In this document: positions 2 through 59,428 of the stretch, in pieces | Layout: each line of letters opens with the position of its first letter | How positions within the stretch are numbered: the stretch's first letter is position 1 | Assembly (NCBI GenBank): GCA_030837285.1 | Contig: JAUPKU010000162.1 | Location: 22,274-86,273, forward strand | Direction of reading: 5' to 3' | DNA: 64,000 bases | Source of the DNA: Thermoproteota archaeon | Lineage (GTDB): Archaea; Thermoproteota; Bathyarchaeia; RBG-16-48-13; GCA-020355125 | Translations under genes and position numbers: made by a program | The notes under the pieces: model-generated | Seen by the model: only the letters and a program-made list of their open reading frames with translations | Database searches by the model: none | What the model was told of the DNA's origin: nothing

Positions 2-1255
2 AATAGGCGGGAGAAAGCGGAGGAGACGGTTTCGGAGACGCTTCGGAGGGCGCGTCTCACGTTGGGCTCTCTTAAACGAAGTGACATCTTGTGGGTGGGT
101 CCGGTTCAGGGGGGAAACTATCTGGACTTGGTCGCCAAATCTGCTTCTGAGGTTGGGAGGATGCCTTTTCAGATTCACGCTCTGGGCAGTCCTACTCAGG
201 TGATGGAGCGCTATCTGTTCAGTACGCTTGTGGACATGATTGTGGCAGCGAAGAGGAATCTTCCGGCGGAGAGGCCTTTTCACCTCTTTGGTGCTGGTCA
301 CCCGTTTATGCTTGCGCTTGCAGTTGCCTTGGGCTGTGACATCTTTGACTCTGCTGCCTATGCCCTCTACGCGAAGGAGGGGAAGTACATGACTGAGTAT
401 GGGACTGCTAGGCTTAGGAACATGTCTTATTTCCCGTGTTCATGTGGCGTTTGCTCTAGACACACGCCTGCGGAGGTGTTGAAGATGGAGCCTTGGGAGC
501 GTACTCGGTTGCTTGCCTGGCATAATCTTTCGAGCTGTTTCACTGAGATAAGAAGGATTAAGCAGGCGATTAGGGAGGGGCGTCTCTGGGAGCTGCTTGA
601 GGTCAGGTGTAGGAGTCACCCGTCTCTGTTTCAGGCTTTGAAGGGGCTGCGACGATACGGGGAGTTTGTTGAGGCGGGGAGTTTAGTATCTAAAGAGCGT
701 GGTCTCTTCTACTATGATTCTGTGGGCTTGGCGCGGCCTGAGGTAGTCTACTATCGGCGGATACTTGGAGGCTGGGTTCCTCCTGATGTGTATGATGTTC
801 TTTTGCTGCTGCCTCAGAGTACTAGTAAACCGTTTCACGGATCGAAGGAGTACAGGAGAGTTATGAAGCTCTTGGAGGAAGCTTTGGGTGAGCGTTTGGA
901 GCGTGTTCACGTCTGCGTTTATGCTGCGCCCTTCGGGGTGATTCCGACTGAGTTGGACGAGGTTTATCCTCTCTCTCAGTTTGAAGCAGCCTTGCCTTTG
1001 GATGGGGAGACTGTTGAGTATGTTGGAGAGCAGGTTGAGGCATACCTGCTGAGTCAGAAGGGTAGATACGGGTCTGTGGTGTTGCATTATGACGTGGATG
1101 AGCTGGGGAGGAGGGTTGTAGCCGCTTGTGAGAAGGGTTGTAGGATGGTTGGAGCTAGATTCCTTCCATCTCTGGCTGAGGAGAAGACTTGGGGTAAAGC
1201 TGCTCTTGAGAATCTTGTGAAAGTAGTTTCTGGAGAGATGAAGGCTGAGGATTAG
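2..1255 (+). CDS. tgtA: Archaeosine tRNA-guanine transglycosylase family protein (TgtA/ArcS-like), 5'-partial
   Basis: The frame is open from base 2 with no stop before the listed TTG at 62, so the gene continues off the left edge. TGT-type motifs LFGAGHP and the zinc site CSCGVCS...H are present, followed by the PFG.IP C-terminal domain typical of archaeal TGT/ArcS. Confidence 0.8.
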   Translation, partial: NRREKAEETVSETLRRARLTLGSLKRSDILWVGPVQGGNYLDLVAKSASEVGRMPFQIHALGSPTQVMERYLFSTLVDMIVAAKRNLPAERPFHLFGAGHPFMLALAVALGCDIFDSAAYALYAKEGKYMTEYGTARLRNMSYFPCSCGVCSRHTPAEVLKMEPWERTRLLAWHNLSSCFTEIRRIKQAIREGRLWELLEVRCRSHPSLFQALKGLRRYGEFVEAGSLVSKERGLFYYDSVGLARPEVVYYRRILGGWVPPDVYDVLLLLPQSTSKPFHGSKEYRRVMKLLEEALGERLERVHVCVYAAPFGVIPTELDEVYPLSQFEAALPLDGETVEYVGEQVEAYLLSQKGRYGSVVLHYDVDELGRRVVAACEKGCRMVGARFLPSLAEEKTWGKAALENLVKVVSGEMKAED

Positions 1256-2200: not shown

Positions 2201-3754
2201 TTAGCCTTCTCTTCCACTGTGAATAAACGTAAGGATGCTTACCACCGCGTACGAAATCATATAAAATACTAGAATGAACACCAAACCGATGTTTGATTGT
2301 TGGAGAGCTTTCCCAATAGTGATAATACACAGTACTACGGCGATAATCTCCAGGTATAAAGTCTTATTCAGCGGAACCTGATACTTCTTGTTTTTCCATT
2401 CGTCAGCACTTCTTTTCAGCGCATATTTCGGCGTTCTTTCAAAAGAGTATTTTCTACTGCTTAAAAGAGCCTTGGCTGCCTGGATTGTGTTATTAATACT
2501 TATGCCAAATCCTATGATGCCAATGACAATAAGGTTCGGGATGCTTCTGATGATGCTTAAGCCTTCGGTTCTCAATGCTATGAGATAAAGTATCCAGACA
2601 GCAGCCCAACATAGAAATAGCAATGTAACAGCCAGTAGAATGAAAGGCTGACCTGCAATTGTATTCAATATTGCCAATGTTATTTGTTCTAAAGCTCTGC
2701 TGGGGTCCTGTCCTAGACCAGCTGGAATTGAAATCACAAGGCCTATCGTATCTATCCCTAATATTCCAGCGATTAGCGCCAGCAAGAAAGAGGTGAAGAT
2801 TAATGGATGAACCAGATAGTACGTTAAGTGTACAAGGGCTTGCATCTTCTGCTTACGACCTACTGTCTTTTCCCTTAACAGGCTTGGAAGTATCTTCTTG
2901 GCTGTTTGAAGAGAACCGCAAGCCCACCTTCCTTGCTGACGTTTAAAGCTTGTTATAGTCGGTGTAAGCTCACATGGAGCAAGGACGTCCCGAAGGAAGA
3001 GGACTCTGTATCCCTTCATCTGAATTCTGTAACTAGCATCCAAATCCTCAGCAAGCGTGTCGGATTGCCATCCTCCAGCATCTCTTAATGCTTTGGATCG
3101 AATTACTCCACCACTTCCATTAAAGTTGAGGAAACACTGTGACGCATATCTGCCTGGTTGCTCAATCAGAAAATGGGCGTTCATCCCTATCGCCACTGCT
3201 CTTGTGATGAAGTTGTATTCTCTGTTAAGGTAACTCCATCTGCCCTGGACAATGCCTACTTTTTCGTCAATGGCAATATGTGGAATGATATCCATTAGAA
3301 AATTAGGCGGAGGCAAAAAGTCCGAATCAAAAATCACTATATAATCCTCACTTGTTCTTTCTAGAGCTTTCTGAAGCGCCCCAGCCTTGTATCCTGCTCT
3401 GTTTTCCCTGTGGATAACTTCCATTCTGAAGCCTTGACTGGAATATGTTCGAGCCAACATCTCTAGCTCTTGCGTTGTTTCATCACTTGAATCGTCTAGA
3501 ATCATAGTCCTTACCAATTCTTTCCCGTAGCTTTCAGCCATATTTGTACATGACTCCAGTAGCCTTCCTACCACATACTTCTCGTTATAGACTGGCAGGT
3601 GTACAGCCACAGGTGGCCTTTCGTTTACGGGTAAATCCCGTTTCGGAATCTTGTATCCTCGTGAGGCTCCGATGAGATAGAAGCAGTTGTAACCATAGAT
3701 GAAAAACATCAGAGTGACGAAGATTGAAATGATGAGCAATATGTTTTCCATCAA
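2201..3754 (-). CDS. Family-2 glycosyltransferase, processive synthase type (cellulose/chitin-synthase-like)
   Basis: Carries the D,D,D,QxxRW set (LDDSSD, FDSDF, AEDLD, QQGRW), one N-terminal TM and a C-terminal TM bundle. Its start overlaps the upstream gene's stop (ATGA at 3751-3754). Confidence 0.85.
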   Translation of the reverse strand: MMENILLIISIFVTLMFFIYGYNCFYLIGASRGYKIPKRDLPVNERPPVAVHLPVYNEKYVVGRLLESCTNMAESYGKELVRTMILDDSSDETTQELEMLARTYSSQGFRMEVIHRENRAGYKAGALQKALERTSEDYIVIFDSDFLPPPNFLMDIIPHIAIDEKVGIVQGRWSYLNREYNFITRAVAIGMNAHFLIEQPGRYASQCFLNFNGSGGVIRSKALRDAGGWQSDTLAEDLDASYRIQMKGYRVLFLRDVLAPCELTPTITSFKRQQGRWACGSLQTAKKILPSLLREKTVGRKQKMQALVHLTYYLVHPLIFTSFLLALIAGILGIDTIGLVISIPAGLGQDPSRALEQITLAILNTIAGQPFILLAVTLLFLCWAAVWILYLIALRTEGLSIIRSIPNLIVIGIIGFGISINNTIQAAKALLSSRKYSFERTPKYALKRSADEWKNKKYQVPLNKTLYLEIIAVVLCIITIGKALQQSNIGLVFILVFYMISYAVVSILTFIHSGREG

Positions 3755-4764
3755 TGTTTTTTCAAGACCTTCCTTGTCCTATTGACAATACTTGATCCAT
3801 AAACGATTAAGACCAAATATACTATAATCCATGATATGAAGAACAACTCTCCATAGTTATCATGGAATATACTTGCCTCGACGTTACCAATTTTAAGTCC
3901 CACGACAAAGATTGTCACTATCCTAAAAATATTGGTTGCAAATGTCCCCATCGCCCCTACTACAACGTATAATATTTTCCGCAGTAGAGAGTAAGAAGTG
4001 TCTTTAATGAAGAGAAGAATCATCCCCGAGTAAATGACGAGACTCTGAATGCCAGCGCTCGGCCAATAGACCGCCGCGCTAAAAGACAAGTTCCCTCCCA
4101 TAACTGTAAGAAGGACACCTGGACCCCTCCAATCAGATATTTCTCCCACAAGAGTTCTGAATCCTAACAATTCTAGGATTCGAGCGGCAGATCTGGTTGT
4201 TAATGGCACAAATACCTGTAAGGCTCCAACGATTCCGTAAGGAGCAAACGTATTTAGTATGAAGAAGATGGCAGTAGACCAGATGAAGAATATGGCTGCG
4301 AGAAATCCCTTAAGCCCGTAGAATCCGTAAACCAGAACAACCGTCAAGGTGAAAGAACTTGCGAACACCAAATATTCTAGTGATATTGGCCAAGAGACGT
4401 CGATGAACCATTTTCCAAAAATTAAGTATGGCACACCGATACTCTTCCCGAGCTCCGATACAACATTATTGAGTCCCCAAAAAGATGTGGCTACTACGTA
4501 TATTGTAGGAATAGTCATGGCAATTATGGCAGCCAGAATCCTCTTTTCAAAAACAACTCTGCTTTTAAATCTTCTATACGCGAGAGCTATTTCTAACCCG
4601 AAGAACCAGACAAATAGAATATAAGGCGTCCTAGCCTCCCAGACGAGCTGGAAAGAATCTGGATTAAGAAAAAAAAGTATTGCTACAGGCAGTATGAAGA
4701 ATATGATAATGATTAAGATTGAAGAGTAATTGATTAAACTCGATAAGATTCTTGATCTATCCAT
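3751..4764 (-). CDS. Exosortase/archaeosortase-family membrane protein, Cys-free variant (candidate PEF-CTERM archaeosortase)
   Basis: Polytopic membrane protein with the ordered blocks WPSAGIQSL, TNIFRIV (NxxR) and IFHDNYGELFF (His block). There is no Cys anywhere in the 337 aa. Confidence 0.65.
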   Translation of the reverse strand: MDRSRILSSLINYSSILIIIIFFILPVAILFFLNPDSFQLVWEARTPYILFVWFFGLEIALAYRRFKSRVVFEKRILAAIIAMTIPTIYVVATSFWGLNNVVSELGKSIGVPYLIFGKWFIDVSWPISLEYLVFASSFTLTVVLVYGFYGLKGFLAAIFFIWSTAIFFILNTFAPYGIVGALQVFVPLTTRSAARILELLGFRTLVGEISDWRGPGVLLTVMGGNLSFSAAVYWPSAGIQSLVIYSGMILLFIKDTSYSLLRKILYVVVGAMGTFATNIFRIVTIFVVGLKIGNVEASIFHDNYGELFFISWIIVYLVLIVYGSSIVNRTRKVLKKH

Positions 4765-4874: not shown

Positions 4875-5531
4875 ATGACCCGTAAACTACCGTTTGATAA
4901 ACTCTTCCAAACCGTCAAGTGGATAATAGAAGGATTAGCTGTTGGGGCAATTATCTTTTCTGTCACATCCATCATTCTCAAGCAGCTCTGGGTGGCTCCT
5001 CTAGGAAACATCAGCTCTTTCTCACTCTTGTCCTTAGCTCTGATTTACCTCTTATCCGAGTCATCATTAATTAGAGCAGGTTTGGAACTGGTTGAAGCCA
5101 TGGTTCTGTCGATTCTATTTGCATTCACATATCTGCAATCCTACGAGCTAATCTATCATTTCTCCTTCCCAATATACCTCAACTACTTCAGATTACCCAT
5201 TCTCGATGGTGAAGGAGCTAGGTACCTAATAGAGCGCCTTCCCGCAGTTCTGCCCATAGCACTAATGCGGAAGCACATGGCCTTCCATAGAATATCAGCA
5301 ATTTTCTTGCTTCTATTCATGACTATATGGGCAATATGGTTACTCTATGGGTTTCCCCAATACTTCGCACAAGACACCTTCTATCCTACCATACTAAAGA
5401 CTAGTGACCAGTACATATTGAGTCTAACGCTGAACTTCGGTTCTAAACTCGTCTTAGCATTATTTTTCATCTCGCTACTAAAACTCGACTTAACTCAAAA
5501 TCCAGTACTAACACTACTGAAGTTTTCATGA
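4875..5531 (+). CDS. Hypothetical polytopic membrane protein
   Basis: The listed ORF starts at TTG 4752, overlapping the divergent gene. The first ATG (4875, MTRKLPF...) is the more plausible start. Several hydrophobic segments; no motif recognised. Confidence 0.45.
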   Translation: MTRKLPFDKLFQTVKWIIEGLAVGAIIFSVTSIILKQLWVAPLGNISSFSLLSLALIYLLSESSLIRAGLELVEAMVLSILFAFTYLQSYELIYHFSFPIYLNYFRLPILDGEGARYLIERLPAVLPIALMRKHMAFHRISAIFLLLFMTIWAIWLLYGFPQYFAQDTFYPTILKTSDQYILSLTLNFGSKLVLALFFISLLKLDLTQNPVLTLLKFS

Positions 5532-5549: not shown

Positions 5550-6011
5550 CTAGTCTGTAACTCGTTCAGGCCAATACTCTAAACTTCTAAATCCTTTTAG
5601 CGATTGCTTTCTCTCGATGTAAAGCAGCGCCATAGATGACAATGTCAGAAGCAGAATCGTTGAAATTATTGTTGGAAATTCTGGTATGACAGTCGTACCT
5701 ATGACTTCGATCTTGTGGGTGCTGTGGGTGTAGAAGATTTATATGAAATAATGTGTTCCATTGAATGCTTAAGTATAGCCCGCGTTCAGAAATAAAGGTG
5801 ATCCATCGAGTTTCACGGTTAAAGTTCCTCCAAGCAAGGCACTGGGGAATGAGATGTTACATAACCCTGATGTCCCCCTCAACCCTGTCACGTTGAAGCT
5901 GATCTACTTCAAAGTGATGCGCGCTAGCTGTCAGATGTTCTCATGAACACTTGAGTAAAGTGGTGAAAGTAGCTAACATATAGAATCTACATGGCTATAC
6001 AGAGGCCAATC
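5550..6011 (-). pseudogene. Decayed PEF-CTERM surface-protein gene (3' part)
   Basis: One minus-strand frame reads ...ISFNVTGLRGTSGLCNISFPSALLGGTLTVKLDGSPLFLNAGYT*AFNGTHYFI*IFYTHSTHKIEVIGTTVIPEFPTIISTILLLTLSSMALLYIERK...* . This is a PEF motif, a TM helix and a basic tail. At least 4 in-frame stops of types TAA, TAG and TGA occur further upstream, and there is no start codon. Confidence 0.6.
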
Positions 6012-6281: not shown

Positions 6282-6677
6282 CTAGGAGGGTAGAGGATTA
6301 TTAGTCCCTCTTTTTAGTGTAATGTTCTTCTGGTAGTCTTTGAATGCTTCGATGAAGTCTTCTGCAAACCTATTCGCGTATTTCTCTGTTCCTCTATGCT
6401 CCGCACCATGTGTTCGGAGGTGATGGTAAAACTCGTGGAGGATTACAAATGGGTTGTTGAGGTAGTCCTGATTTGTTATGTGGATCGTCTTGGTCTTGGA
6501 GACGTAGCATCCAAGGTTCTTTCGGTGTCCTTTGGGCATTCCAACCTTCAGACTTGGTTCTTCAACGTTGTAGTGGCAGCTCAGCATCCCTATCGCATCT
6601 GTACTTTCTTTAGTGAGGATCATCTGAACGATCTTGACTTTGAATAGATTTTCCTCTTCTCCCTCTTCTTCAGGCAT
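6282..6677 (-). CDS. Small putative zinc metallopeptidase (HExxH)
   Basis: Contains ILHEFYHHLRTHG (HExxH followed by a further His) in a 131-aa protein with an acidic N-terminus. Confidence 0.45.
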   Translation of the reverse strand: MPEEEGEEENLFKVKIVQMILTKESTDAIGMLSCHYNVEEPSLKVGMPKGHRKNLGCYVSKTKTIHITNQDYLNNPFVILHEFYHHLRTHGAEHRGTEKYANRFAEDFIEAFKDYQKNITLKRGTNNPLPS

Positions 6678-6884: not shown

Positions 6885-7640
6885 TTAGGGAAGATTTGAA
6901 AAAATACCTAAGAAAACTGCTATATCGGTTCCTGCATGGAACAAAATGGATCCTAGTGTGCTATTGGTTTTCTGCATTAATGCACCCCATGCAAGGCCGA
7001 GTAGAAACGTGAATATAATTAGAGCAAATGTGTAGGGCGTGTATGCTATTTGTCCTCTTCCGGCTACTGCGTGACTCAACGAAAATATGATGGCTTGTAA
7101 GAGGTTGGAGTAACCTAGTCCCAGCAGAGGTTCATATTTTTTGAGGAAGAGGCCTCTGTACAGTAGTTCTTCTCTGATGCCATTTGCCATTATGGTTATG
7201 AGCAGCCAGGGTGCCCAGGCAATTGCCTTCTCCAGGCTTAAGTTCTGACCTTGGAACAAGTATGTGGCTTCGGGAACAGACGCTGCGGCGAAGATGAAGA
7301 AACCAGCTATGCCAGCAACAAGTCCTAGTCTGATGTTTCCCTTCTGTAGAAAAAGCGCGGCCCAGTTATCCCCTGAAATCATGGATAGTACAATAATTGG
7401 TGTAATAACCAACACTGTGCTTAACACCATACTTAAAACTACACTGGTGATGGACGTCGTCTGCCAATTGAGGAAGGCACTTGTTGTCTGTAGACTGAGG
7501 GCGAAAGAGGCAATGAAGAATGATAGGAAAATCCTCCAGTACTTTTTGAAGGTTTCCTTTCTGTACATTACAACGGATAGCAAGAGGAATGTGGTTGAAA
7601 GGCCCATTCGGTATACCAAATCATAGTTAGGTGGAATCAT
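6885..7640 (-). CDS. CPBP family intramembrane glutamic endopeptidase (CAAX protease/Abi)
   Basis: Shows the three family motifs REELLYRG (EExxxR), FSLSHA (FxxxH) and LFHAGTD (HxxxD/N) within a multi-TM protein. Confidence 0.8.
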   Translation of the reverse strand: MIPPNYDLVYRMGLSTTFLLLSVVMYRKETFKKYWRIFLSFFIASFALSLQTTSAFLNWQTTSITSVVLSMVLSTVLVITPIIVLSMISGDNWAALFLQKGNIRLGLVAGIAGFFIFAAASVPEATYLFQGQNLSLEKAIAWAPWLLITIMANGIREELLYRGLFLKKYEPLLGLGYSNLLQAIIFSLSHAVAGRGQIAYTPYTFALIIFTFLLGLAWGALMQKTNSTLGSILFHAGTDIAVFLGIFSNLP

Positions 7641-25588: not shown

Positions 25589-25840
25589 TATAAAAAAGCG
25601 CGCGTGCATGTGTCATTCATTTCTTCATACCGCGCGATAAATTAGAAGTTTAAGGATTAAATTTTAATTTTTTTCTCCCTGACGACCTAACGCCCTAGAG
25701 GTTTATACGTATTTCCACAAAATTATCTTGCACATACGGATACAAATTATACCACATTAACCTGTTAAGAAAAAGAAAAAAGAAGAAAACAGCATCAGAA
25801 AATCGTGCGTATTTTCGTTGTTGTAGAAACTCTATCCCAT

Positions 25841-25850
25841 ATATTTAAAT
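25841..25850 (+). promoter_or_regulatory. Candidate TATA box for the PEF-CTERM gene
   Basis: atatttaaat lies 36-45 nt upstream of the proposed TTG start. Confidence 0.3.
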
Positions 25851-25885
25851 TACTTAAGTCAAGTATTTTATTAGGAGGCGATTGT

Positions 25886-27229
25886 TTGTATAAAAAATTC
25901 CTACCTTTTCTGTTGATATTAGTGTTCGCGTCAAGCTTTGCAGGTCAAATACTCCTTTTCAGCTCTAAAGTGGCGCCGAATAACATTGAAATCGCAAACG
26001 CCGCGGCTGGTCCTTTAGCAAGCGCCTATTTATATGCTGACCCTTCAAATTCTAGTGAAGATGGTTCATCCTTCGCTATTACGAATAGTAATGGACAATT
26101 CAATATGACAACGGGCTTAATCCCTGGAACATACAATATTACAGCTTTTGCAATTGGCTATATTCAAGAGAAAATTGATTTAGTAAATGTCGTCGCAGGT
26201 CAAACAACACCTGGCATAAACTTCAATCTACAACTATCTGGAGGAATTTCAGGAAAGGTCACCGATGCAGTTAACGGAGATCCAATTAACGGCACTTTCA
26301 TATTCGCAGAACTCTCAAATGGCACTGGAACTTACGGATGGTTTGGTACTGCTGGACAAGATGGTTCATATCTTTTAATGACAAACCTTGTAACTGGAAT
26401 ATACAATGTCTCAGTCTTTTACGCAGACGGGTATATCAGTGGGATGGCAACATCAAGTGTTGTTGCGGGAGTTGAAACTAAGAATATAAATCTCCAACTA
26501 CCACGATCAGGAATCATCTCAGGAAAAGTGATGGCGCCAAATGGCACTGGACTCTACGGTATTTCTGTAATCGCAAGTGGCACATCATACTTCGGTTCTG
26601 CTACGACGGATGTATCGGGTAATTTCAGAATAGCCACAGGACTCGGAACAGCTAATTACACAGTATATGCCAATGGAGCTGGAAATTACTCAGCATACGG
26701 CGGTATTCTTTCACCTACGTTGGTTCATGTTACAGCAGGTCAAGAAACACCTAATATAAACATTGAGCTTACCCCTGTTACATCTCCTCCAACACCTTCT
26801 GGTGAAATAAGGGGCCGTATAATAGACATAAATAATAATCCGATAAGATCAGCATCGGTTGCAGCATCAGGGAGCAATGGAACAGGCTATGGCTCTACAG
26901 ACGATAATGGCGACTATAACATTTCAAGTGGCTTGCTAACAGGAAACGATTACAATGTAAGTGTAACGGCTACAGGATACTTCGATGCTTATTATCCAAC
27001 TCTTGTCAGTGTCACAATTGGACAAACAACAGATAATATAAACATCCAAATGTTAGCAGAACCTGCAACTACATTCGGAACTATTACTGGTAGTGTCATT
27101 GGAAACCCAATCATAATTCCTGAATTCTCAAGTACAATAATCGAAATAATCTCGCTAGCACTAGTAACCGCAGTCGCAATAAAGCTAAAACGCACTCAAT
27201 TTAAACCAAATGTCCACATAAGTTCATAG
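25886..27229 (+). CDS. PEF-CTERM surface protein with carboxypeptidase-regulatory-like (CarboxypepD_reg) repeats
   Basis: TTG 25886 lies 7 nt after GGAGG (25874-25878) and gives the signal peptide YKKFLPFLLILVFASSFA. There are about 5 repeats of G.ISGKV.D...G.PI......G.Y......G.Y.V....GY and many N-x-S/T sequons. The C-terminus IIIPEFSSTIIEIISLALVTAVAIKLKR (27119-27226) is a PEF motif, a TM helix and a basic patch. Confidence 0.75.
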   Translation: MYKKFLPFLLILVFASSFAGQILLFSSKVAPNNIEIANAAAGPLASAYLYADPSNSSEDGSSFAITNSNGQFNMTTGLIPGTYNITAFAIGYIQEKIDLVNVVAGQTTPGINFNLQLSGGISGKVTDAVNGDPINGTFIFAELSNGTGTYGWFGTAGQDGSYLLMTNLVTGIYNVSVFYADGYISGMATSSVVAGVETKNINLQLPRSGIISGKVMAPNGTGLYGISVIASGTSYFGSATTDVSGNFRIATGLGTANYTVYANGAGNYSAYGGILSPTLVHVTAGQETPNINIELTPVTSPPTPSGEIRGRIIDINNNPIRSASVAASGSNGTGYGSTDDNGDYNISSGLLTGNDYNVSVTATGYFDAYYPTLVSVTIGQTTDNINIQMLAEPATTFGTITGSVIGNPIIIPEFSSTIIEIISLALVTAVAIKLKRTQFKPNVHISS

Positions 27230-32938: not shown

Positions 32939-33030
32939 AAGTCAATCTCGAATATAGTAGACAATAATTTAATTCTCAAAGGATTAAACCTTTTGTTTTC
33001 ACCCGCAGAGCAAATAAGAGCATAAATGGG

Positions 33031-33150
<120 letters not shown>

Positions 33151-57454: not shown

Positions 57455-58948
57455 TTAGTGTCTCTTCTTCAGTACGATGATTATCATTATTATTGATGCT
57501 ACTAAACCGCCTATTATCAGGAATCCCATTTGATTGAATCGAGTCTGTGTTATGGTGGGCGCAAAGTATATCGTTGTAACAGGGTCGTGTTCTACTCTAT
57601 ATCCACTGTATGAAGGATATGATATAAGGTAAAGGTAGTCTGCACGGGTCATATTTGCTATGGTGTCCTTGGCTTTCTCGTAGAGTTGAGGTTGTAGTCG
57701 CATTACTAGGAGTGGCAGATATTTTGCGAAATTGGATTGGTATTTGAAGAGTTCGGAATTCTTGCTAAAACCACTTGTCTGGCTTGTCCTTGAGATTGAT
57801 ACGTATTGATTCGCTGTCTTCTCGCTTGAGTCTTGAGTGTAGTTGAATAAATTATAATTCTGTTTGACTCCGAAGGACGTGTCCAGTATCTTTTCTCCTC
57901 CGTCAGCATATGTTGAGATTTCAGAGTCACTTACTAATACGTCTCTGTCAGTGACGTTCTGTCCAGTATAAGATGTACTGTAGGTGCTTCTGTCAAATAT
58001 GATCGAAGTCTGATATTCCACTATGCTCATCTTCACCTTGTTCCTGTATAAGAACTGGTAGATTGTTTCGTTGGAGACTTTTGTGTTATAGCTATAACAT
58101 CCAGTGTTGTTGTAATGATTGTATATTGGCCAGATAATGAACCATCCTCCAAAGACCCATAGATCCCTCATGCGTCCTATTATGAAGTCCTGAGAAATCG
58201 TTGCCTTGTGTGTGTTCGGATCAATATTTAGCGTATAGTTGAATGTCAACTCGTCATACGTTGCAAGACCAAATGGCTTACTAGTCTCAGTTCCATTCTG
58301 ACCTGTAATCTGAGTTGTCGTCCATAACGCGGTTAGATTTGAGTACCTCATTCCCCACTTCCACGCCAACCCATTATTTGAAGAAGCAAGAGGGTAGATC
58401 TCTGCTTTGCTCGTGAATGAGGGAAGTTTAATGTTAGGAAATATCTCCTGAAGGTTAACACCTAAACTGAAAGAAGCCCATAGAGTATCATTCTTGTCAG
58501 GCGAATCTTGATAAATTGATTTTCCTGTATCATTAAAGCCCATTATCATGAGAAAATTAGACGCAACCAGAGCGTCTCTGTTATTCTTATCTGTCTTATA
58601 GTGCAGAAGAATAGACTGCATTGGAATCGTAAGATAAGCTTGATCAACCAAGCTAATGTTAAGGAGCCCCGCATACAGCATTTGCAGCCCGGTCTTATTC
58701 ACATATGCTGTATAGACATTTGCATGCCAGTTATCATTTGGCTTAGGAAGTCCATTAAGCAAGGCATAAGCTCTAGCATAATCGAAATAATCTATAGTTT
58801 TAGAGAAACTATCCTTCTGAAAATCATCTTTTAATAGTTCATCTGCTGAAACCAATGGCATAAATGGAGTGGCTAAACAGGAAATTATGATGAAACTAAA
58901 AATAATCTTTGAGCTAATATGTGAAGACATATTAATTATCACGTCCAA
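57455..58948 (-). CDS. Secreted protein rich in N-glycosylation sequons, with a C-terminal TM anchor
   Basis: Has an N-terminal signal (IIFSFIIISCLATPFMPLVSA), about 12 N-x-S/T sequons, and the C-terminus MGFLIIGGLVASIIMIIIVLKKRH. No PEF or PGF motif is present. Confidence 0.55.
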   Translation of the reverse strand: MDVIINMSSHISSKIIFSFIIISCLATPFMPLVSADELLKDDFQKDSFSKTIDYFDYARAYALLNGLPKPNDNWHANVYTAYVNKTGLQMLYAGLLNISLVDQAYLTIPMQSILLHYKTDKNNRDALVASNFLMIMGFNDTGKSIYQDSPDKNDTLWASFSLGVNLQEIFPNIKLPSFTSKAEIYPLASSNNGLAWKWGMRYSNLTALWTTTQITGQNGTETSKPFGLATYDELTFNYTLNIDPNTHKATISQDFIIGRMRDLWVFGGWFIIWPIYNHYNNTGCYSYNTKVSNETIYQFLYRNKVKMSIVEYQTSIIFDRSTYSTSYTGQNVTDRDVLVSDSEISTYADGGEKILDTSFGVKQNYNLFNYTQDSSEKTANQYVSISRTSQTSGFSKNSELFKYQSNFAKYLPLLVMRLQPQLYEKAKDTIANMTRADYLYLISYPSYSGYRVEHDPVTTIYFAPTITQTRFNQMGFLIIGGLVASIIMIIIVLKKRH

Positions 58949-59428
58949 ACGATTAAAACCAAAGAGATTTGTGTCTTAACTGAATTCAAATTTAATTTCT
59001 GAATGATAATCGGAATTATCATTTATTTTGAATAAAAGACTTATGAATTTTCAATCACATGGTGCCATGTAAAAGTAATAGTAGCTACATTGAATGGAAA
59101 TCCGCAGTTTTATATCCTAAGTGTCAACAATTTATGGAAAATTGAGATGGGTTCATTTCCGTGTAATAGCAGGTCTATTATCATTTATACAATTTCATTT
59201 TCTATTGGCCTGGCGGTCTTCGTGTTCTGTTTCGCGTATCCTTTGATATTTCAGCCTGCCAGTCCTACTTTTGAAAGGGGCTTCTCTATTTATTATACTG
59301 CTGCATGGAGGTTAATTCATAATCCTGATAAGGTGTACTCATTGAATGTGGAGTCTGGGATTATTCAATTTCGCCTTCAGCTGTTTTCAAGTATATATTC
59401 GGTAAAAAGTAGCTCTGCTGTCTTACTT

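What the first reader, a model, noticed from the sequence alone, without database searches (positions are those of the whole stretch)
2201..4764. Cysteine-free archaeosortase homologue translationally coupled to a processive GT2 synthase
The 337-aa product of 3751-4764(-) is a polytopic membrane protein. It carries the exosortase/archaeosortase signature blocks in the usual order: AAVYWPSAGIQSLVIY, then GTFATNIFRIVTIF (NxxR), then ASIFHDNYGELFF (His block). The Arg and His blocks are intact. The position that holds the catalytic Cys in the canonical C-S-G-(I/L)-x-S block reads S-A-G-I-Q-S, and the whole protein contains no Cys at all. If it is active, it must use Ser as the nucleophile. Its stop overlaps (ATGA, 3751-3754) the start of a 517-aa GT2 enzyme with the D,D,D,QxxRW set and flanking TM bundles, which is a cellulose/chitin/hyaluronan-synthase-like processive enzyme. 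Exosortases are classically embedded in bacterial EPS loci. As far as I know, a compact two-gene sortase-synthase operon in an archaeon, with a Ser-for-Cys sortase, is not a described arrangement. It suggests that sorting or anchoring of PEF-CTERM proteins is mechanistically tied to synthesis of a beta-glycan.
Basis: partly seen in the sequence, partly recalled or inferred. Interest (0 to 1): 0.72.

Follow-up and report, generated by a model that had tools for sequence, protein, structure and literature searches.

The report
Serine-type archaeosortase cassette with glycan synthase
An uncultured archaeon carries a small gene cassette for a surface-protein sorting enzyme whose usual catalytic cysteine is a conserved serine, joined to a cellulose-synthase-like enzyme; the serine form also occurs in an already curated enzyme family and similar sortase-plus-glycosyltransferase cassettes are known in bacteria, so this is an interesting variant rather than a new kind of system.

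Summary
Window 3751-4764(-) encodes a 337-aa, Cys-free member of the exosortase/archaeosortase superfamily. Ser236 sits exactly where 83 of 105 homologues carry Cys (WPC[AS]G[IV]xS). Asn278, Arg281 and His301 are invariant. Its stop overlaps the start of a 516/517-aa GT2 whose sequence and predicted fold match the cellulose synthase BcsA.

Ser is not a dead allele: all 22 homologues at 47% identity or more have it.

It is not unprecedented either. Proteins that pass NCBI's curated thaumarchaeosortase model (TIGR04297) also carry WPSAG. Tree position and codons (AGC here, TCT there) suggest the two lineages switched independently.

GT2 linkage is limited to a sub-lineage. There, an orphan membrane protein, the Ser-sortase, the GT2 and often a PEF-tailed protein form a conserved cassette. 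Other Ser-type genes, a bona fide thaumarchaeosortase and all 80 Cys-type Bathyarchaeia loci lack the GT2, and GT2 orthologues also occur alone.

PEF+TM+basic tails are enriched next to these sortases (P about 6e-5). The window holds one intact PEF-tailed protein and one decayed remnant. The bacterial XrtG system is a described analogue.

Verdict: a new variant of a known kind. Physical coupling to glycan synthesis is plausible but unproven.

The parts
3751..4764 (-). Ser-type archaeosortase-family protein, 337 aa, no Cys. It is predicted to have about 8 TM helices plus a three-stranded beta element (residues 203-232) just before the nucleophile.
   Evidence: ORF. TIGR04178 scores 45.9 bits against cutoff 23; TIGR04297 scores 66.6 against cutoff 250. 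105 homologues. Alignment invariants. AF2 model pLDDT 93, pTM 0.88. It is the only family member in the window.
4057..4059 (-). Codon AGC for Ser236, in the column that holds the catalytic Cys in relatives.
   Evidence: Column counts are 22 Ser / 83 Cys. AGC is used in the window and in 10 of the 11 fetched Ser-type loci typed at that point (TCA in L160); Cys relatives use TGT or TGC. Coordinates.
3922..3933 (-). Codons for Asn278...Arg281 (the NxxR block).
   Evidence: N278 and R281 are invariant in 105 of 105 sequences. Coordinates.
3862..3864 (-). Codon for His301 (the His block, FHDxYGE).
   Evidence: H301 is invariant in 105 of 105 sequences. Coordinates.
2201..3754 (-). BcsA-like membrane-embedded GT2 synthase: 516 aa from ATG 3751, or 517 aa from TTG 3754.
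   Evidence: Pfam Glyco_trans_2_3, Glyco_tranf_2_3, Glycos_transf_2 and GT21. BcsA chains 4p00/5ej1 at E about 1e-20, with D/DxD/TED/QxxRW aligned. Invariant motifs plus FxRTPKY. AF2 model pLDDT 91.4. Foldseek top hit BcsA with TM-score 0.69, followed by HAS, CesA and Chs.
3749..3754 (-). Gene junction TTGATG, where the sortase stop TGA overlaps the GT2 start (ATG by 1 nt, or TTG by 4 nt).
   Evidence: Sequence read directly. A 4-nt overlap is also called in L172.
4875..5531 (+). Orphan polytopic membrane protein, about 218 aa from ATG 4875, divergent from the sortase. It is the third conserved member of the cassette.
   Evidence: Homology to relatives starts at ORF residue 43-44. Only 17 homologues were found. 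It is adjacent to the Ser-sortase in L083, L084, L086, L087, L088 and L171. Conserved QSYELIYHF, R116, WILYGFPQYF and LNFGSK. No Pfam or PDB relative.
5550..5909 (-). Decayed remnant of a PEF-CTERM surface-protein gene. About the last 100 codons survive, including IPEFPT + TM + basic tail, interrupted by in-frame TAG, TAA and TAA.
   Evidence: tblastn hits at E 1e-9 to 3e-14 to the C-termini of PEF-tailed proteins that flank sortases in L011, L081, L089, L112 and L131. Stop codons read.
25805..27229 (+). Intact candidate substrate: a 474-aa secreted-type protein with four CarboxypepD_reg domains and a C-terminal IIPEFSST + TM + KLKR tail.
   Evidence: ORF. Tail found. Pfam CarboxypepD_reg 107 bits over 4 stretches. 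Not detected by the short curated CTERM models.

Best explanation
This is a protein-sorting cassette of an uncultured archaeon, built around a serine-type archaeosortase.

Shown:
- The 337-aa protein belongs to the exosortase/archaeosortase superfamily. It sits in a small subfamily (465 clusters at 50% identity) centred on Bathyarchaeia and related to thaumarchaeosortase.
- Its clade has replaced the nucleophile Cys by Ser while keeping Asn278/Arg281, His301 and the rest of the signature invariant.
- Proteins ending in [IV]PEF[PSTN] + TM helix + basic tail are encoded next to sortases of this subfamily, both Cys-type and Ser-type.
- In one sub-lineage of the Ser clade, the sortase sits in a conserved cassette with an orphan polytopic membrane protein, a BcsA-like GT2 and often a PEF-tailed protein.

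Inferred:
- The enzyme is active at the outer membrane face. Ser236-O attacks the PEF signal of exported surface proteins, assisted by His301, with Arg281 stabilising the transition state. This releases the TM/basic tail and forms an acyl-O-enzyme ester instead of the thioester proposed for ArtA.
- The ester is resolved by an acceptor, which may be a lipid head group, a glycan or water.
- The GT2 polymerises and extrudes a beta-linked glycan through its own TM channel.
- The cassette co-produces the glycan and the surface proteins that are displayed in or on it. This parallels bacterial PEP-CTERM/EPS and XrtG systems.
- Whether the glycan is itself the acceptor is open.
For: Family membership:
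- TIGR04178 is above its cutoff.
- The alignment is colinear with 105 homologues, and W234, G238, S241, N278, R281 and H301 are invariant.
- The AF2 model is a confident polytopic fold.

Ser is selected, not decay:
- All 22 homologues at 47% identity or more have Ser, and 67 columns are invariant among 12 Ser-clade sequences that are 44-75% identical.
- 32 of the 150 best 50%-identity representatives have Ser.
- Bona fide thaumarchaeosortases (527, 363 and 265 bits on TIGR04297) also have WPSAG with NxxR and His kept.
- An aromatic residue at position -3 accompanies Ser in 18/18 and 15/15 members of the two Ser groups, against 16/138 Cys-type proteins.

Independent switches:
- Our protein is 23-28% identical to thaumarchaeosortases but 40-45% identical to the nearest Cys-type relatives.
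- All-Ser monophyly appears in 0 of 100 bootstraps.
- The Ser codon is AGC here and TCT in P0372, each one step from a Cys codon.

Substrates:
- 10 of 12 PEF-type tails lie within 1.5 kb of the sortase, a zone holding 26% of the flanking sequence (P about 6e-5). Control motifs are not enriched.
- Ser-type examples are L081, L084/L171, L160 and L172.
- The L084 tail scores 21.3 bits on TIGR03024 PEF-CTERM, cutoff 23.
- The window holds one intact PEF-tailed protein and one remnant.

Cassette:
- The TM protein, Ser-sortase and GT2 are together in the window, L083, L084/L171 and L086. L172 has the sortase and GT2, but that contig begins just upstream of the sortase. GT2 identity across these is 46-64%.
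- Gene overlap occurs in the window and in L172.

GT2 nature.

Precedents:
- artA-pssA-pssD synteny and the acceptor model (PMC7157517).
- The XrtG system (PMC12854382).
Against: - There is no biochemical evidence that any Ser-type family member is active. In ArtA the Cys is critical (PMC9263693).
- I could not measure Ser-Arg-His distances because model coordinates are not exposed. No solved relative exists.
- GT2 linkage is partial. L081, L082, L138 and L160 are Ser-type without the GT2 or the TM protein. The bona fide thaumarchaeosortase locus L170 lacks it.
- GT2 orthologues at 49-57% identity stand alone in unrelated contexts.
- Gene spacing in L083, L084 and L086 is roughly 50-200 nt, not an overlap.
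- The PEF gene adjacent to the window's cassette is decayed.
- The tree is NJ on divergent membrane proteins, and support for the boundaries of our clade is weak (core clade 26/100).
Confidence: 0.55

Rival explanations
1. The sortase and the GT2 are only co-located or co-regulated envelope genes. The GT2 is a housekeeping glycan synthase that happens to sit downstream of the sortase in one lineage, and sorting chemistry and glycan synthesis are mechanistically independent.
For: - The GT2 family is very large (more than 1,167 proteins at E<=1e-30, many at about 48-50% identity).
- Orthologues stand alone next to UbiA/SRP19/ribosomal genes, a glycoside hydrolase, or an MptA-like GT.
- About half of the assessable Ser-type loci, and all 80 Cys-type GTDB loci, lack it.
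- L170 lacks it.
Against: - Synteny persists although the GT2 has diverged to 46-64% identity.
- An orphan membrane protein, found adjacent to the Ser-sortase in every assessable locus except one truncated copy (L165), co-occurs with the GT2 in every locus where both could be assessed. It is absent from the stand-alone GT2 loci.
- A substrate gene follows the GT2 in L084, L171 and L172.
- Start/stop overlap occurs in two loci.
Confidence: 0.3
2. The Ser-type protein is a catalytically inactive pseudo-sortase. It would act as a receptor, scaffold or chaperone for PEF-tailed proteins or for the synthase, with cleavage done by another enzyme, for example a Cys-type paralogue elsewhere or the nearby CPBP protease.
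For: - The Cys is critical in ArtA (PMC9263693).
- From my own knowledge, Cys-to-Ser swaps usually cripple cysteine transpeptidases.
- A CPBP/Rce1-like intramembrane protease lies 2 kb away at 6885-7640.
- Only 64 kb of the genome is visible.
Against: - Arg, His, Asn and the whole signature stay invariant in Ser lineages across 23-75% identity.
- Ser arose at least twice, together with a matching second-shell aromatic change. That pattern fits retuning of an active site rather than loss.
- No CPBP homologue was found in the other cassette loci.
- Ser-His chemistry inside membranes has a precedent in rhombosortase (PMC3237569).
Confidence: 0.12
3. The GT2 does not make a free polysaccharide. 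It makes a glycolipid or short lipid-linked glycan that serves as the anchor or acceptor for the sortase reaction, by analogy with PssA/PssD supplying archaetidylethanolamine to ArtA.
For: - The GT21 (ceramide glucosyltransferase-like) Pfam model hits at 51.8 bits.
- There is no PilZ or other regulatory domain.
- The high conservation of stand-alone orthologues would suit a membrane-lipid function.
- The ArtA precedent for a gene neighbour that supplies the acceptor (PMC7157517).
Against: - The best sequence and fold matches over the whole length, TM region included, are processive, channel-forming synthases: BcsA TM-score 0.69, then HAS, CesA and Chs.
- QxxRW and a gating-loop-like FxRTPK motif are invariant.
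Confidence: 0.12

Closest known systems
Thaumarchaeosortase (NCBIfam TIGR04297)
   Same: It is the best full-length model hit. It has the same architecture and signature. Members that pass the curated cutoff carry the same W-P-S-A-G-x-x-S block with Ser in the nucleophile column, NxxR and His, and P0372 also has no Cys at all.
   Different: The window protein scores 66.6 bits against a cutoff of 250 and is only 23-28% identical. Its nearest relatives are Cys-type Bathyarchaeia proteins. The Ser codon class differs (AGC against TCT). The bona fide locus examined has no GT2.
Archaeosortase A (ArtA) of Haloferax volcanii with PGF-CTERM substrates
   Same: It belongs to the same superfamily. It is a polytopic enzyme with conserved Cys/Arg/His-type residues needed for C-terminal processing of tripartite signals (motif + TM + basic tail) (PMC9263693). 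In methanogens the gene neighbours pssA and pssD supply the proposed acceptor (PMC7157517).
   Different: ArtA uses Cys173, with a proposed thioester intermediate. Its signal is PGF, not PEF, and its partner genes make a lipid rather than a glycan. No ArtA sequence was available for a direct alignment here.
Bacterial exosortase G (XrtG) system, and PEP-CTERM/EpsH exosortases in EPS loci
   Same: The XrtG system is a compact cassette of a CTERM-signal protein, an exosortase-family protein and associated GT2 glycosyltransferases (PMC12854382). NCBIfam curates XrtG- and XrtP-associated GTs, to which this GT2 shows weak similarity. Bona fide and near-threshold thaumarchaeosortase-type relatives give weak XrtG hits.
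   Different: These systems are bacterial. The window proteins do not reach those models' cutoffs (TIGR03111 33.8 bits against 364; no TIGR03110 hit). The signal here is PEF-type. The extra orphan TM protein is specific to this cassette.
Cellulose synthase BcsA and related processive GT2 synthases (HAS, CesA, Chs)
   Same: D, DxD, TED and QxxRW motifs, a gating-loop-like FxRTPK motif, and a GT-A domain fused to a TM bundle. The fold matches BcsA with TM-score 0.69 over 554 columns.
   Different: There is no PilZ domain and no BcsB-like partner. It has fewer TM helices. It is far below the CelA equivalog cutoff (98.7 bits against 699). The product is unknown.
Rhombosortase / GlyGly-CTERM
   Same: It is a membrane-embedded Ser-nucleophile enzyme that removes a tripartite C-terminal sorting signal (PMC3237569; bioRxiv 10.1101/2023.06.07.544157). 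This is a functional analogy for Ser chemistry in sorting.
   Different: The fold and family are unrelated (rhomboid).

Membership tests
Exosortase/archaeosortase superfamily | Signature-region HMM (NCBIfam TIGR04178) at or above its curated cutoff | tested here: met
   45.9 bits against cutoff 23, residues 232-319 on profile positions 3-90 of 97.
Exosortase/archaeosortase superfamily | Pfam PF09721 (Exosortase_EpsH) at or above its gathering score | tested here: not met
   19.9 bits against 25.7 in this Pfam copy. Most homologues do carry a precomputed PF09721 hit.
Exosortase/archaeosortase superfamily | Polytopic (about 8-TM) membrane architecture | tested here: met
   AF2 model pLDDT 93, pTM 0.88, with long helices throughout.
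Exosortase/archaeosortase superfamily | Conserved Arg (NxxR) and His blocks after the nucleophile block, in that order | tested here: met
   N278, R281 and H301 are invariant in 105 of 105 sequences.
Exosortase/archaeosortase superfamily | Catalytic Cys in the C-[SA]-G-[IVL]-x-S block | tested here: not met
   Ser236 occupies the column. 83 of 105 homologues have Cys there, and the protein has no Cys anywhere.
Exosortase/archaeosortase superfamily | Nucleophile, Arg and His converge at the extracytoplasmic membrane face | not testable with these tools
   Model coordinates are not exposed and there is no solved relative. Only topology could be inferred. Ser236 precedes helix 239-254, His301 lies in the short helix 294-303, and the basic C-terminal tail suggests these helix ends face outward (inference).
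Exosortase/archaeosortase superfamily | Cognate tripartite C-terminal sorting signal on other proteins of the genome or locus | tested here: met
   PEF + TM + basic tails are enriched beside sortases of this subfamily (10 of 12 within 1.5 kb, P about 6e-5). The window has one intact example (25805-27229) and one remnant (5550-5909).
Thaumarchaeosortase (TIGR04297) | Full-length HMM score at or above the curated cutoff (250 bits) | tested here: not met
   66.6 bits. By contrast P0359 scores 527, P0372 scores 363 and P0339 scores 265.
Thaumarchaeosortase (TIGR04297) | Ser in the nucleophile column (a feature observed here in members that pass the cutoff) | tested here: met
   WPSAG in P0359, P0372 and P0339. 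All 15 members of that group have Ser at the aligned column.
Thaumarchaeosortase (TIGR04297) | Partner signal PEFG-CTERM and restriction to ammonia-oxidising Thaumarchaeota (from my own knowledge of the TIGRFAMs pairing; PEFG-CTERM proteins in Nitrosopumilus: PMC6593220) | tested here: inconclusive
   No PEFG-CTERM model hit on any PEF-tailed protein tested. The tails read PEF[PSTN], not PEFG. The taxon of the window is unresolved.
Archaeosortase C (TIGR03762; PEF-CTERM partner) | HMM at or above its cutoff (100 bits) | tested here: not met
   14.8 bits. The PEF-CTERM model TIGR03024 reaches 21.3 bits against 23 on the L084 cassette protein.
BcsA-like processive membrane GT2 synthases | GT-A domain with D, DxD, TED and QxxRW motifs | tested here: met
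   Aligned with BcsA. D86/D87, D142/D144, E235/D236 and Q272/Q273/R275/W276 are invariant in 51 sequences.
BcsA-like processive membrane GT2 synthases | TM bundle and interface helices forming a translocation channel; whole-length fold similarity | tested here: met
   Foldseek: 4p00_A TM-score 0.69 (query-normalised) over 554 columns, E 4e-20, followed by HAS, CesA, Chs and CGS. Model pLDDT 91.4.
BcsA-like processive membrane GT2 synthases | Gating-loop motif FxVTxK | tested here: inconclusive
   An invariant F437-x-R439-T440-P441-K442-Y443 fits F-x-[VR]-T-x-K. Equivalence to the BcsA loop was not checked by structural superposition.
BcsA-like processive membrane GT2 synthases | Cellulose synthase proper: CelA equivalog score and PilZ domain | tested here: not met
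   TIGR03030 scores 98.7 bits against 699.1. No PilZ hit in Pfam.
XrtG-type exosortase + glycosyltransferase system | Cassette of a CTERM-signal protein, an exosortase-family gene and an associated GT2 | tested here: met
   Ser-sortase, then GT2, then a PEF-tailed protein in L084, L171 and L172. The window has the sortase-GT2 pair with a decayed PEF gene nearby.
XrtG-type exosortase + glycosyltransferase system | Membership of the XrtG (TIGR03110) and XrtG-associated GT (TIGR03111) families | tested here: not met
   No TIGR03110 hit for the window sortase. TIGR03111 scores 33.8 bits against 363.95 for the GT2.

The most novel reading that the evidence does not exclude
The Ser-type archaeosortase, the orphan membrane protein and the BcsA-like synthase form one membrane machine. 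It cleaves PEF-tailed surface proteins through an acyl-O-serine intermediate and transfers their new C-terminus directly onto the nascent beta-glycan, or onto a glycan-lipid primer, as it emerges from the synthase channel. This would be a protein-polysaccharide conjugation system in archaea. In this reading the Cys-to-Ser change adapts the enzyme to a hydroxyl (sugar) acceptor instead of an amine acceptor.
Probability: 0.1. Interest if true: 0.8.

Novelty: new variant of a known kind. Interest (0 to 1): 0.45.

Why it matters
What exosortases and archaeosortases attach their substrates to, and why they sit in polysaccharide loci, has been open since the family was defined. Only ArtA has experimental support, for a lipid acceptor. 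This cassette offers two natural experiments.

1. The nucleophile has been exchanged from Cys to Ser repeatedly in one subfamily, with the rest of the active site conserved and a matching second-shell change. That makes 'can this fold run on serine?' directly testable by S236C/C-to-S swaps between close relatives.

2. It is a minimal module of three or four genes (membrane partner, sortase, glycan synthase, substrate). It is small enough to reconstitute heterologously and to ask whether the glycan is the acceptor.

It also shows that much of the Bathyarchaeia-type 'thaumarchaeosortase' annotation in metagenomes is loose. Those proteins form their own subfamily with a PEF-type signal.

Tried and rejected
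- Dead-allele hypothesis: rejected. Every homologue at 47% identity or more has Ser, and the signature is under clear constraint.
- Ser variant unique to this clade: rejected. Curated thaumarchaeosortases also have it.
- Single origin of Ser: not supported (0 of 100 bootstraps; different codon classes). The tree is weak, so this is not excluded.
- Cys-less homologues always next to a GT2: rejected.
- GT2 specific to sortase loci: rejected.
- In-frame stops in the 5550-5909 remnant as recoding: rejected, because they are a mix of TAG, TAA and TAA at non-conserved positions.
- Window ORF 57455-58975(-), with a C-terminal TM + LKKRH, as a PEF substrate: rejected. It has no PEF motif and no family hit.
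- Structure comparison of the sortase with solved structures: nothing found (Foldseek best E 0.1; profile against PDB sequences 0 hits).
- Orphan TM protein: no Pfam, NCBIfam or PDB relative.
- Literature: 'thaumarchaeosortase' gives 0 papers in the searchable library. Haft et al. 2012 (PMC3256604) is not held, so I could not check whether the Ser variant is discussed in print.
- Taxonomy of the window: GTDB species representatives contain only Cys-type relatives at 40% identity or less, nearly all Bathyarchaeia. Cluster look-ups gave no names. Only 'archaeon' is supported (TgtA/ArcS-like and Nre genes).
- Direct alignment with H. volcanii ArtA: not possible, because no sequence was available in the tools.

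Full report
**1. The observation**

The two ORFs exist as described: 3751..4764(-) encodes 337 aa and 2201..3754(-) encodes 517 aa. The 337-aa product has no cysteine. It passes NCBI's exosortase/archaeosortase signature model TIGR04178 (45.9 bits, cutoff 23). Its best full-length hit is thaumarchaeosortase TIGR04297, but at 66.6 bits against a cutoff of 250. ArtC scores 14.8 against 100, and Pfam PF09721 falls just below its gathering score (19.9 against 25.7).

A search of 5.8 billion proteins returned 105 homologues. In their alignment W234, G238, S241, N278, R281 and H301 are invariant. The column of Ser236 holds Ser in 22 sequences and Cys in 83. Some Cys-type sequences read W-P-C-S-G-[IV]-x-S, the canonical block.

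One correction concerns the junction. On the minus strand it reads CAT-TGA-TGG. The stop TGA is at 3753-3751. The GT2 starts at ATG 3751-3749 (1-nt overlap) or at TTG 3754-3752 (4-nt overlap). It is not ATGA.

**2. Ser is a clade character, not a dead allele**

All 22 homologues at 47% identity or more carry Ser, and all 83 at 43% or less carry Cys. Twelve full-length Ser-clade proteins, 44-75% identical to ours, share 67 invariant columns that include the whole signature.

An exhaustive profile search of 1.84 billion representatives clustered at 50% identity found only 465 family clusters. Among the best 150, 98 have Cys and 32 have Ser.

**3. Ser is not unprecedented**

A second, more distant set of Ser-bearing representatives turned out to be bona fide thaumarchaeosortases. 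P0359, P0372 and P0339 score 527, 363 and 265 bits on TIGR04297 (cutoff 250), and each carries WPSAG plus NxxR and His. In a 173-sequence alignment all 15 members of that group have Ser at the aligned column. P0372 also has no Cys at all. The Ser replacement is thus a property of a family that NCBI already curates. I found no paper that discusses it. The term 'thaumarchaeosortase' returned nothing, and the founding paper is not held.

**4. One switch or several?**

Several lines of evidence point to recurrent Cys-to-Ser exchange:
- Our protein is 23-28% identical to thaumarchaeosortases but 40-45% identical to its nearest Cys-type relatives.
- With the catalytic column masked, neither all-Ser monophyly nor 'our clade + thaumarchaeosortases' appeared in any of 100 NJ bootstraps. 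The thaumarchaeosortase core had 83% support and our core clade only 26%.
- Our clade uses AGC in 10 of 11 fetched loci, and L160 uses TCA. The bona fide thaumarchaeosortase P0372 uses TCT. AGC and TCT are each one step from a Cys codon but two steps from each other.
- In both Ser groups the residue three positions upstream is aromatic (18/18 and 15/15), against 16/138 in Cys-type proteins. That looks like a correlated second-shell change.

The evidence is suggestive rather than conclusive, because the phylogeny is coarse.

**5. Substrates**

Proteins ending in [IV]PEF[PSTN] + hydrophobic helix + basic residues are encoded beside sortases of this subfamily. The neighbours are Cys-type in L004, L005, L009, L011, L042, L089, L112, L131 and L132, and Ser-type in L081, L084/L171, L160 and L172. 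Ten of 12 such tails lie within 1.5 kb of the sortase, a zone that makes up 26% of the flanking sequence (binomial P about 6e-5). Five control motifs show no enrichment. The L084 tail matches the curated archaeal PEF-CTERM model end to end at 21.3 bits, with a cutoff of 23.

In the window, 25805-27229(+) encodes an intact 474-aa protein with four CarboxypepD_reg domains and an IIPEFSST + TM + KLKR tail. Region 5550-5909(-) is a single-frame remnant homologous (E 1e-9 to 3e-14) to the last 100 or so residues of PEF proteins from five other loci. It is broken by TAG, TAA and TAA.

**6. The GT2**

By sequence it aligns with BcsA across the catalytic core (E about 1e-20), with D, DxD, TED and QxxRW in register. 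In 51 homologues these motifs are invariant, and so is F-x-R-T-P-K-Y near residue 437, which resembles the BcsA gating-loop motif FxVTxK. The AF2 model (pLDDT 91.4) superposes on BcsA over 554 columns with TM-score 0.69. The next matches are hyaluronan, plant cellulose, chitin and cyclic-glucan synthases. 'Processive, channel-forming synthase' is supported at the sequence and fold level. The product is unknown. It is not cellulose synthase proper: CelA scores 98.7 bits against 699, and there is no PilZ domain.

**7. How general is the linkage?**

- None of the 80 Cys-type loci from GTDB species representatives (nearly all Bathyarchaeia) has this GT2 within 8 kb.
- Within the Ser clade there are two arrangements.
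 - Cassette loci: the orphan TM protein, the Ser-sortase and the GT2 are together in the window, L083, L084/L171 and L086. L172 has the sortase and GT2, but that contig starts too close to the sortase to show the TM protein. L087 and L088 have the TM protein and sortase and end before the GT2 position. A PEF-tailed protein follows the GT2 in L084, L171 and L172.
 - Non-cassette loci: L081, L082, L138 and L160 have neither the GT2 nor the TM protein. L081 and L082 sit beside other glycan genes.
- A bona fide thaumarchaeosortase locus, L170, has no GT2.
- The GT2 family is very large (more than 1,167 proteins at E<=1e-30), and orthologues at 49-57% identity stand alone.
- The orphan TM protein (window 4875-5531) has only 17 homologues. 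It carries conserved polar motifs and has no detectable relatives. Except for one truncated copy (L165), it was seen only next to the Ser-sortase, and it accompanies the GT2 wherever both could be assessed.
- Start/stop overlap recurs only in L172. Elsewhere the gap is roughly 50-200 nt.

**8. Interpretation**

The best-supported reading is an archaeal PEF-type sorting cassette whose sortase uses, or at least conserves, a Ser in the nucleophile position. In one sub-lineage it is joined to a beta-glycan synthase and a dedicated membrane partner.

The chemistry is inferred, not shown. It would involve an acyl-O-enzyme intermediate with His301 as base and Arg281 stabilising. I could not measure active-site distances because model coordinates are not exposed, and there is no solved relative.

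Two precedents frame the synteny. In methanogens artA sits next to pssA and pssD, whose product is proposed as the amine acceptor for ArtA (PMC7157517). The bacterial XrtG system combines a CTERM protein, an exosortase and two glycosyltransferases (PMC12854382).

The main rivals are mere co-location or co-regulation, a pseudo-enzyme, and a GT2 that makes a lipid-linked acceptor.

**9. Novelty**

Neither the Ser variant nor the sortase-plus-GT2 arrangement is categorically new. The following do appear to be new:
- a distinct, uncurated Ser clade nested among Cys-type Bathyarchaeia proteins, implying recurrent nucleophile exchange;
- a PEF-type signal for this subfamily;
- a conserved cassette that includes an orphan membrane protein.

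I rate it a new variant of a known kind, with interest 0.45.

Noticed in passing
window 6885-7640 (-): A CPBP/Rce1-like intramembrane glutamic protease (Pfam PF02517 56 bits; weak hits to the myxosortase/MrtS/MrtJ sorting-protease models) lies 2 kb from the sortase cassette. CPBP proteases are themselves sorting enzymes in other systems. No homologue was found in the other cassette loci.
   Followed up: partly
window 6282-6677 (-): A 131-aa ORF with an HEFYHH (HExxH-like) motif and no Pfam or NCBIfam hit. It may be a small metallopeptidase-like protein. It lies between the PEF remnant and the CPBP protease.
   Followed up: no
window 57455-58975 (-): A roughly 500-aa protein that looks N-glycosylation-rich and secreted. 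It has a C-terminal TM helix and an LKKRH tail but no PEF motif (the preceding sequence is ...RFNQMGF), and no family hit. It could carry a different sorting or anchoring signal.
   Followed up: partly
P0005, P0007, P0008, P0011, P0012, P0018-P0020 (Ser-clade homologues; e.g. L084 1842-2630): One Ser-clade subgroup has a Cys immediately before the invariant Arg (N-I-C-R-I instead of N-I-F-R-I). A thiol therefore reappears next to the active site in enzymes that have Ser in the nucleophile column. The window protein and P0002/P0003 lack it.
   Followed up: no
L081 9632-12487 (-) and L081/L082 upstream genes: The PEF-tailed protein next to the L081 Ser-sortase (951-962 aa) contains an archaeal signal-peptidase-I domain (TIGR02228 58 bits, cutoff 51.85). 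The locus also holds a large PTPS_related (PF10131) membrane protein, two small GT2s, an epimerase and a radical SAM/SPASM enzyme. From my own recollection, PF10131 proteins also accompany bacterial XrtG systems.
   Followed up: partly
L173 82-1152 (+): The GT2 homologue at 64% identity in L173 is preceded not by a sortase but by a TSP3-repeat protein ending in ...SEPF + TM + KRRQKF, a tripartite-looking tail with a permuted motif. The contig ends just upstream, so a sortase could lie beyond it.
   Followed up: partly
L165 8001-8435: A truncated homologue (144 aa) of the orphan TM protein sits alone on an 83-kb contig with no sortase or GT2 nearby. It may be a relic of a lost cassette.
   Followed up: partly
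window 62-1255 (+): The TgtA/ArcS-like ORF matches only positions 154-439 of the archaeal TgtA model and then DUF5591. Its N-terminal catalytic part is not in this ORF, so it may be a split gene, a frameshift, or cut off by the window edge.
   Followed up: no
window 33030-33150 (-): A 5S rRNA gene is the only Rfam hit in 64 kb, with no 16S or 23S nearby.
   Followed up: no
one search hit table (e.g. P0085, P0096): Many Cys-type Bathyarchaeia proteins are labelled 'thaumarchaeosortase' by JGI. The window's own Ser-type protein, from the same Bathyarchaeia-centred subfamily, scores far below the TIGR04297 cutoff, which suggests the name is being propagated loosely in metagenome annotation.
   Followed up: partly
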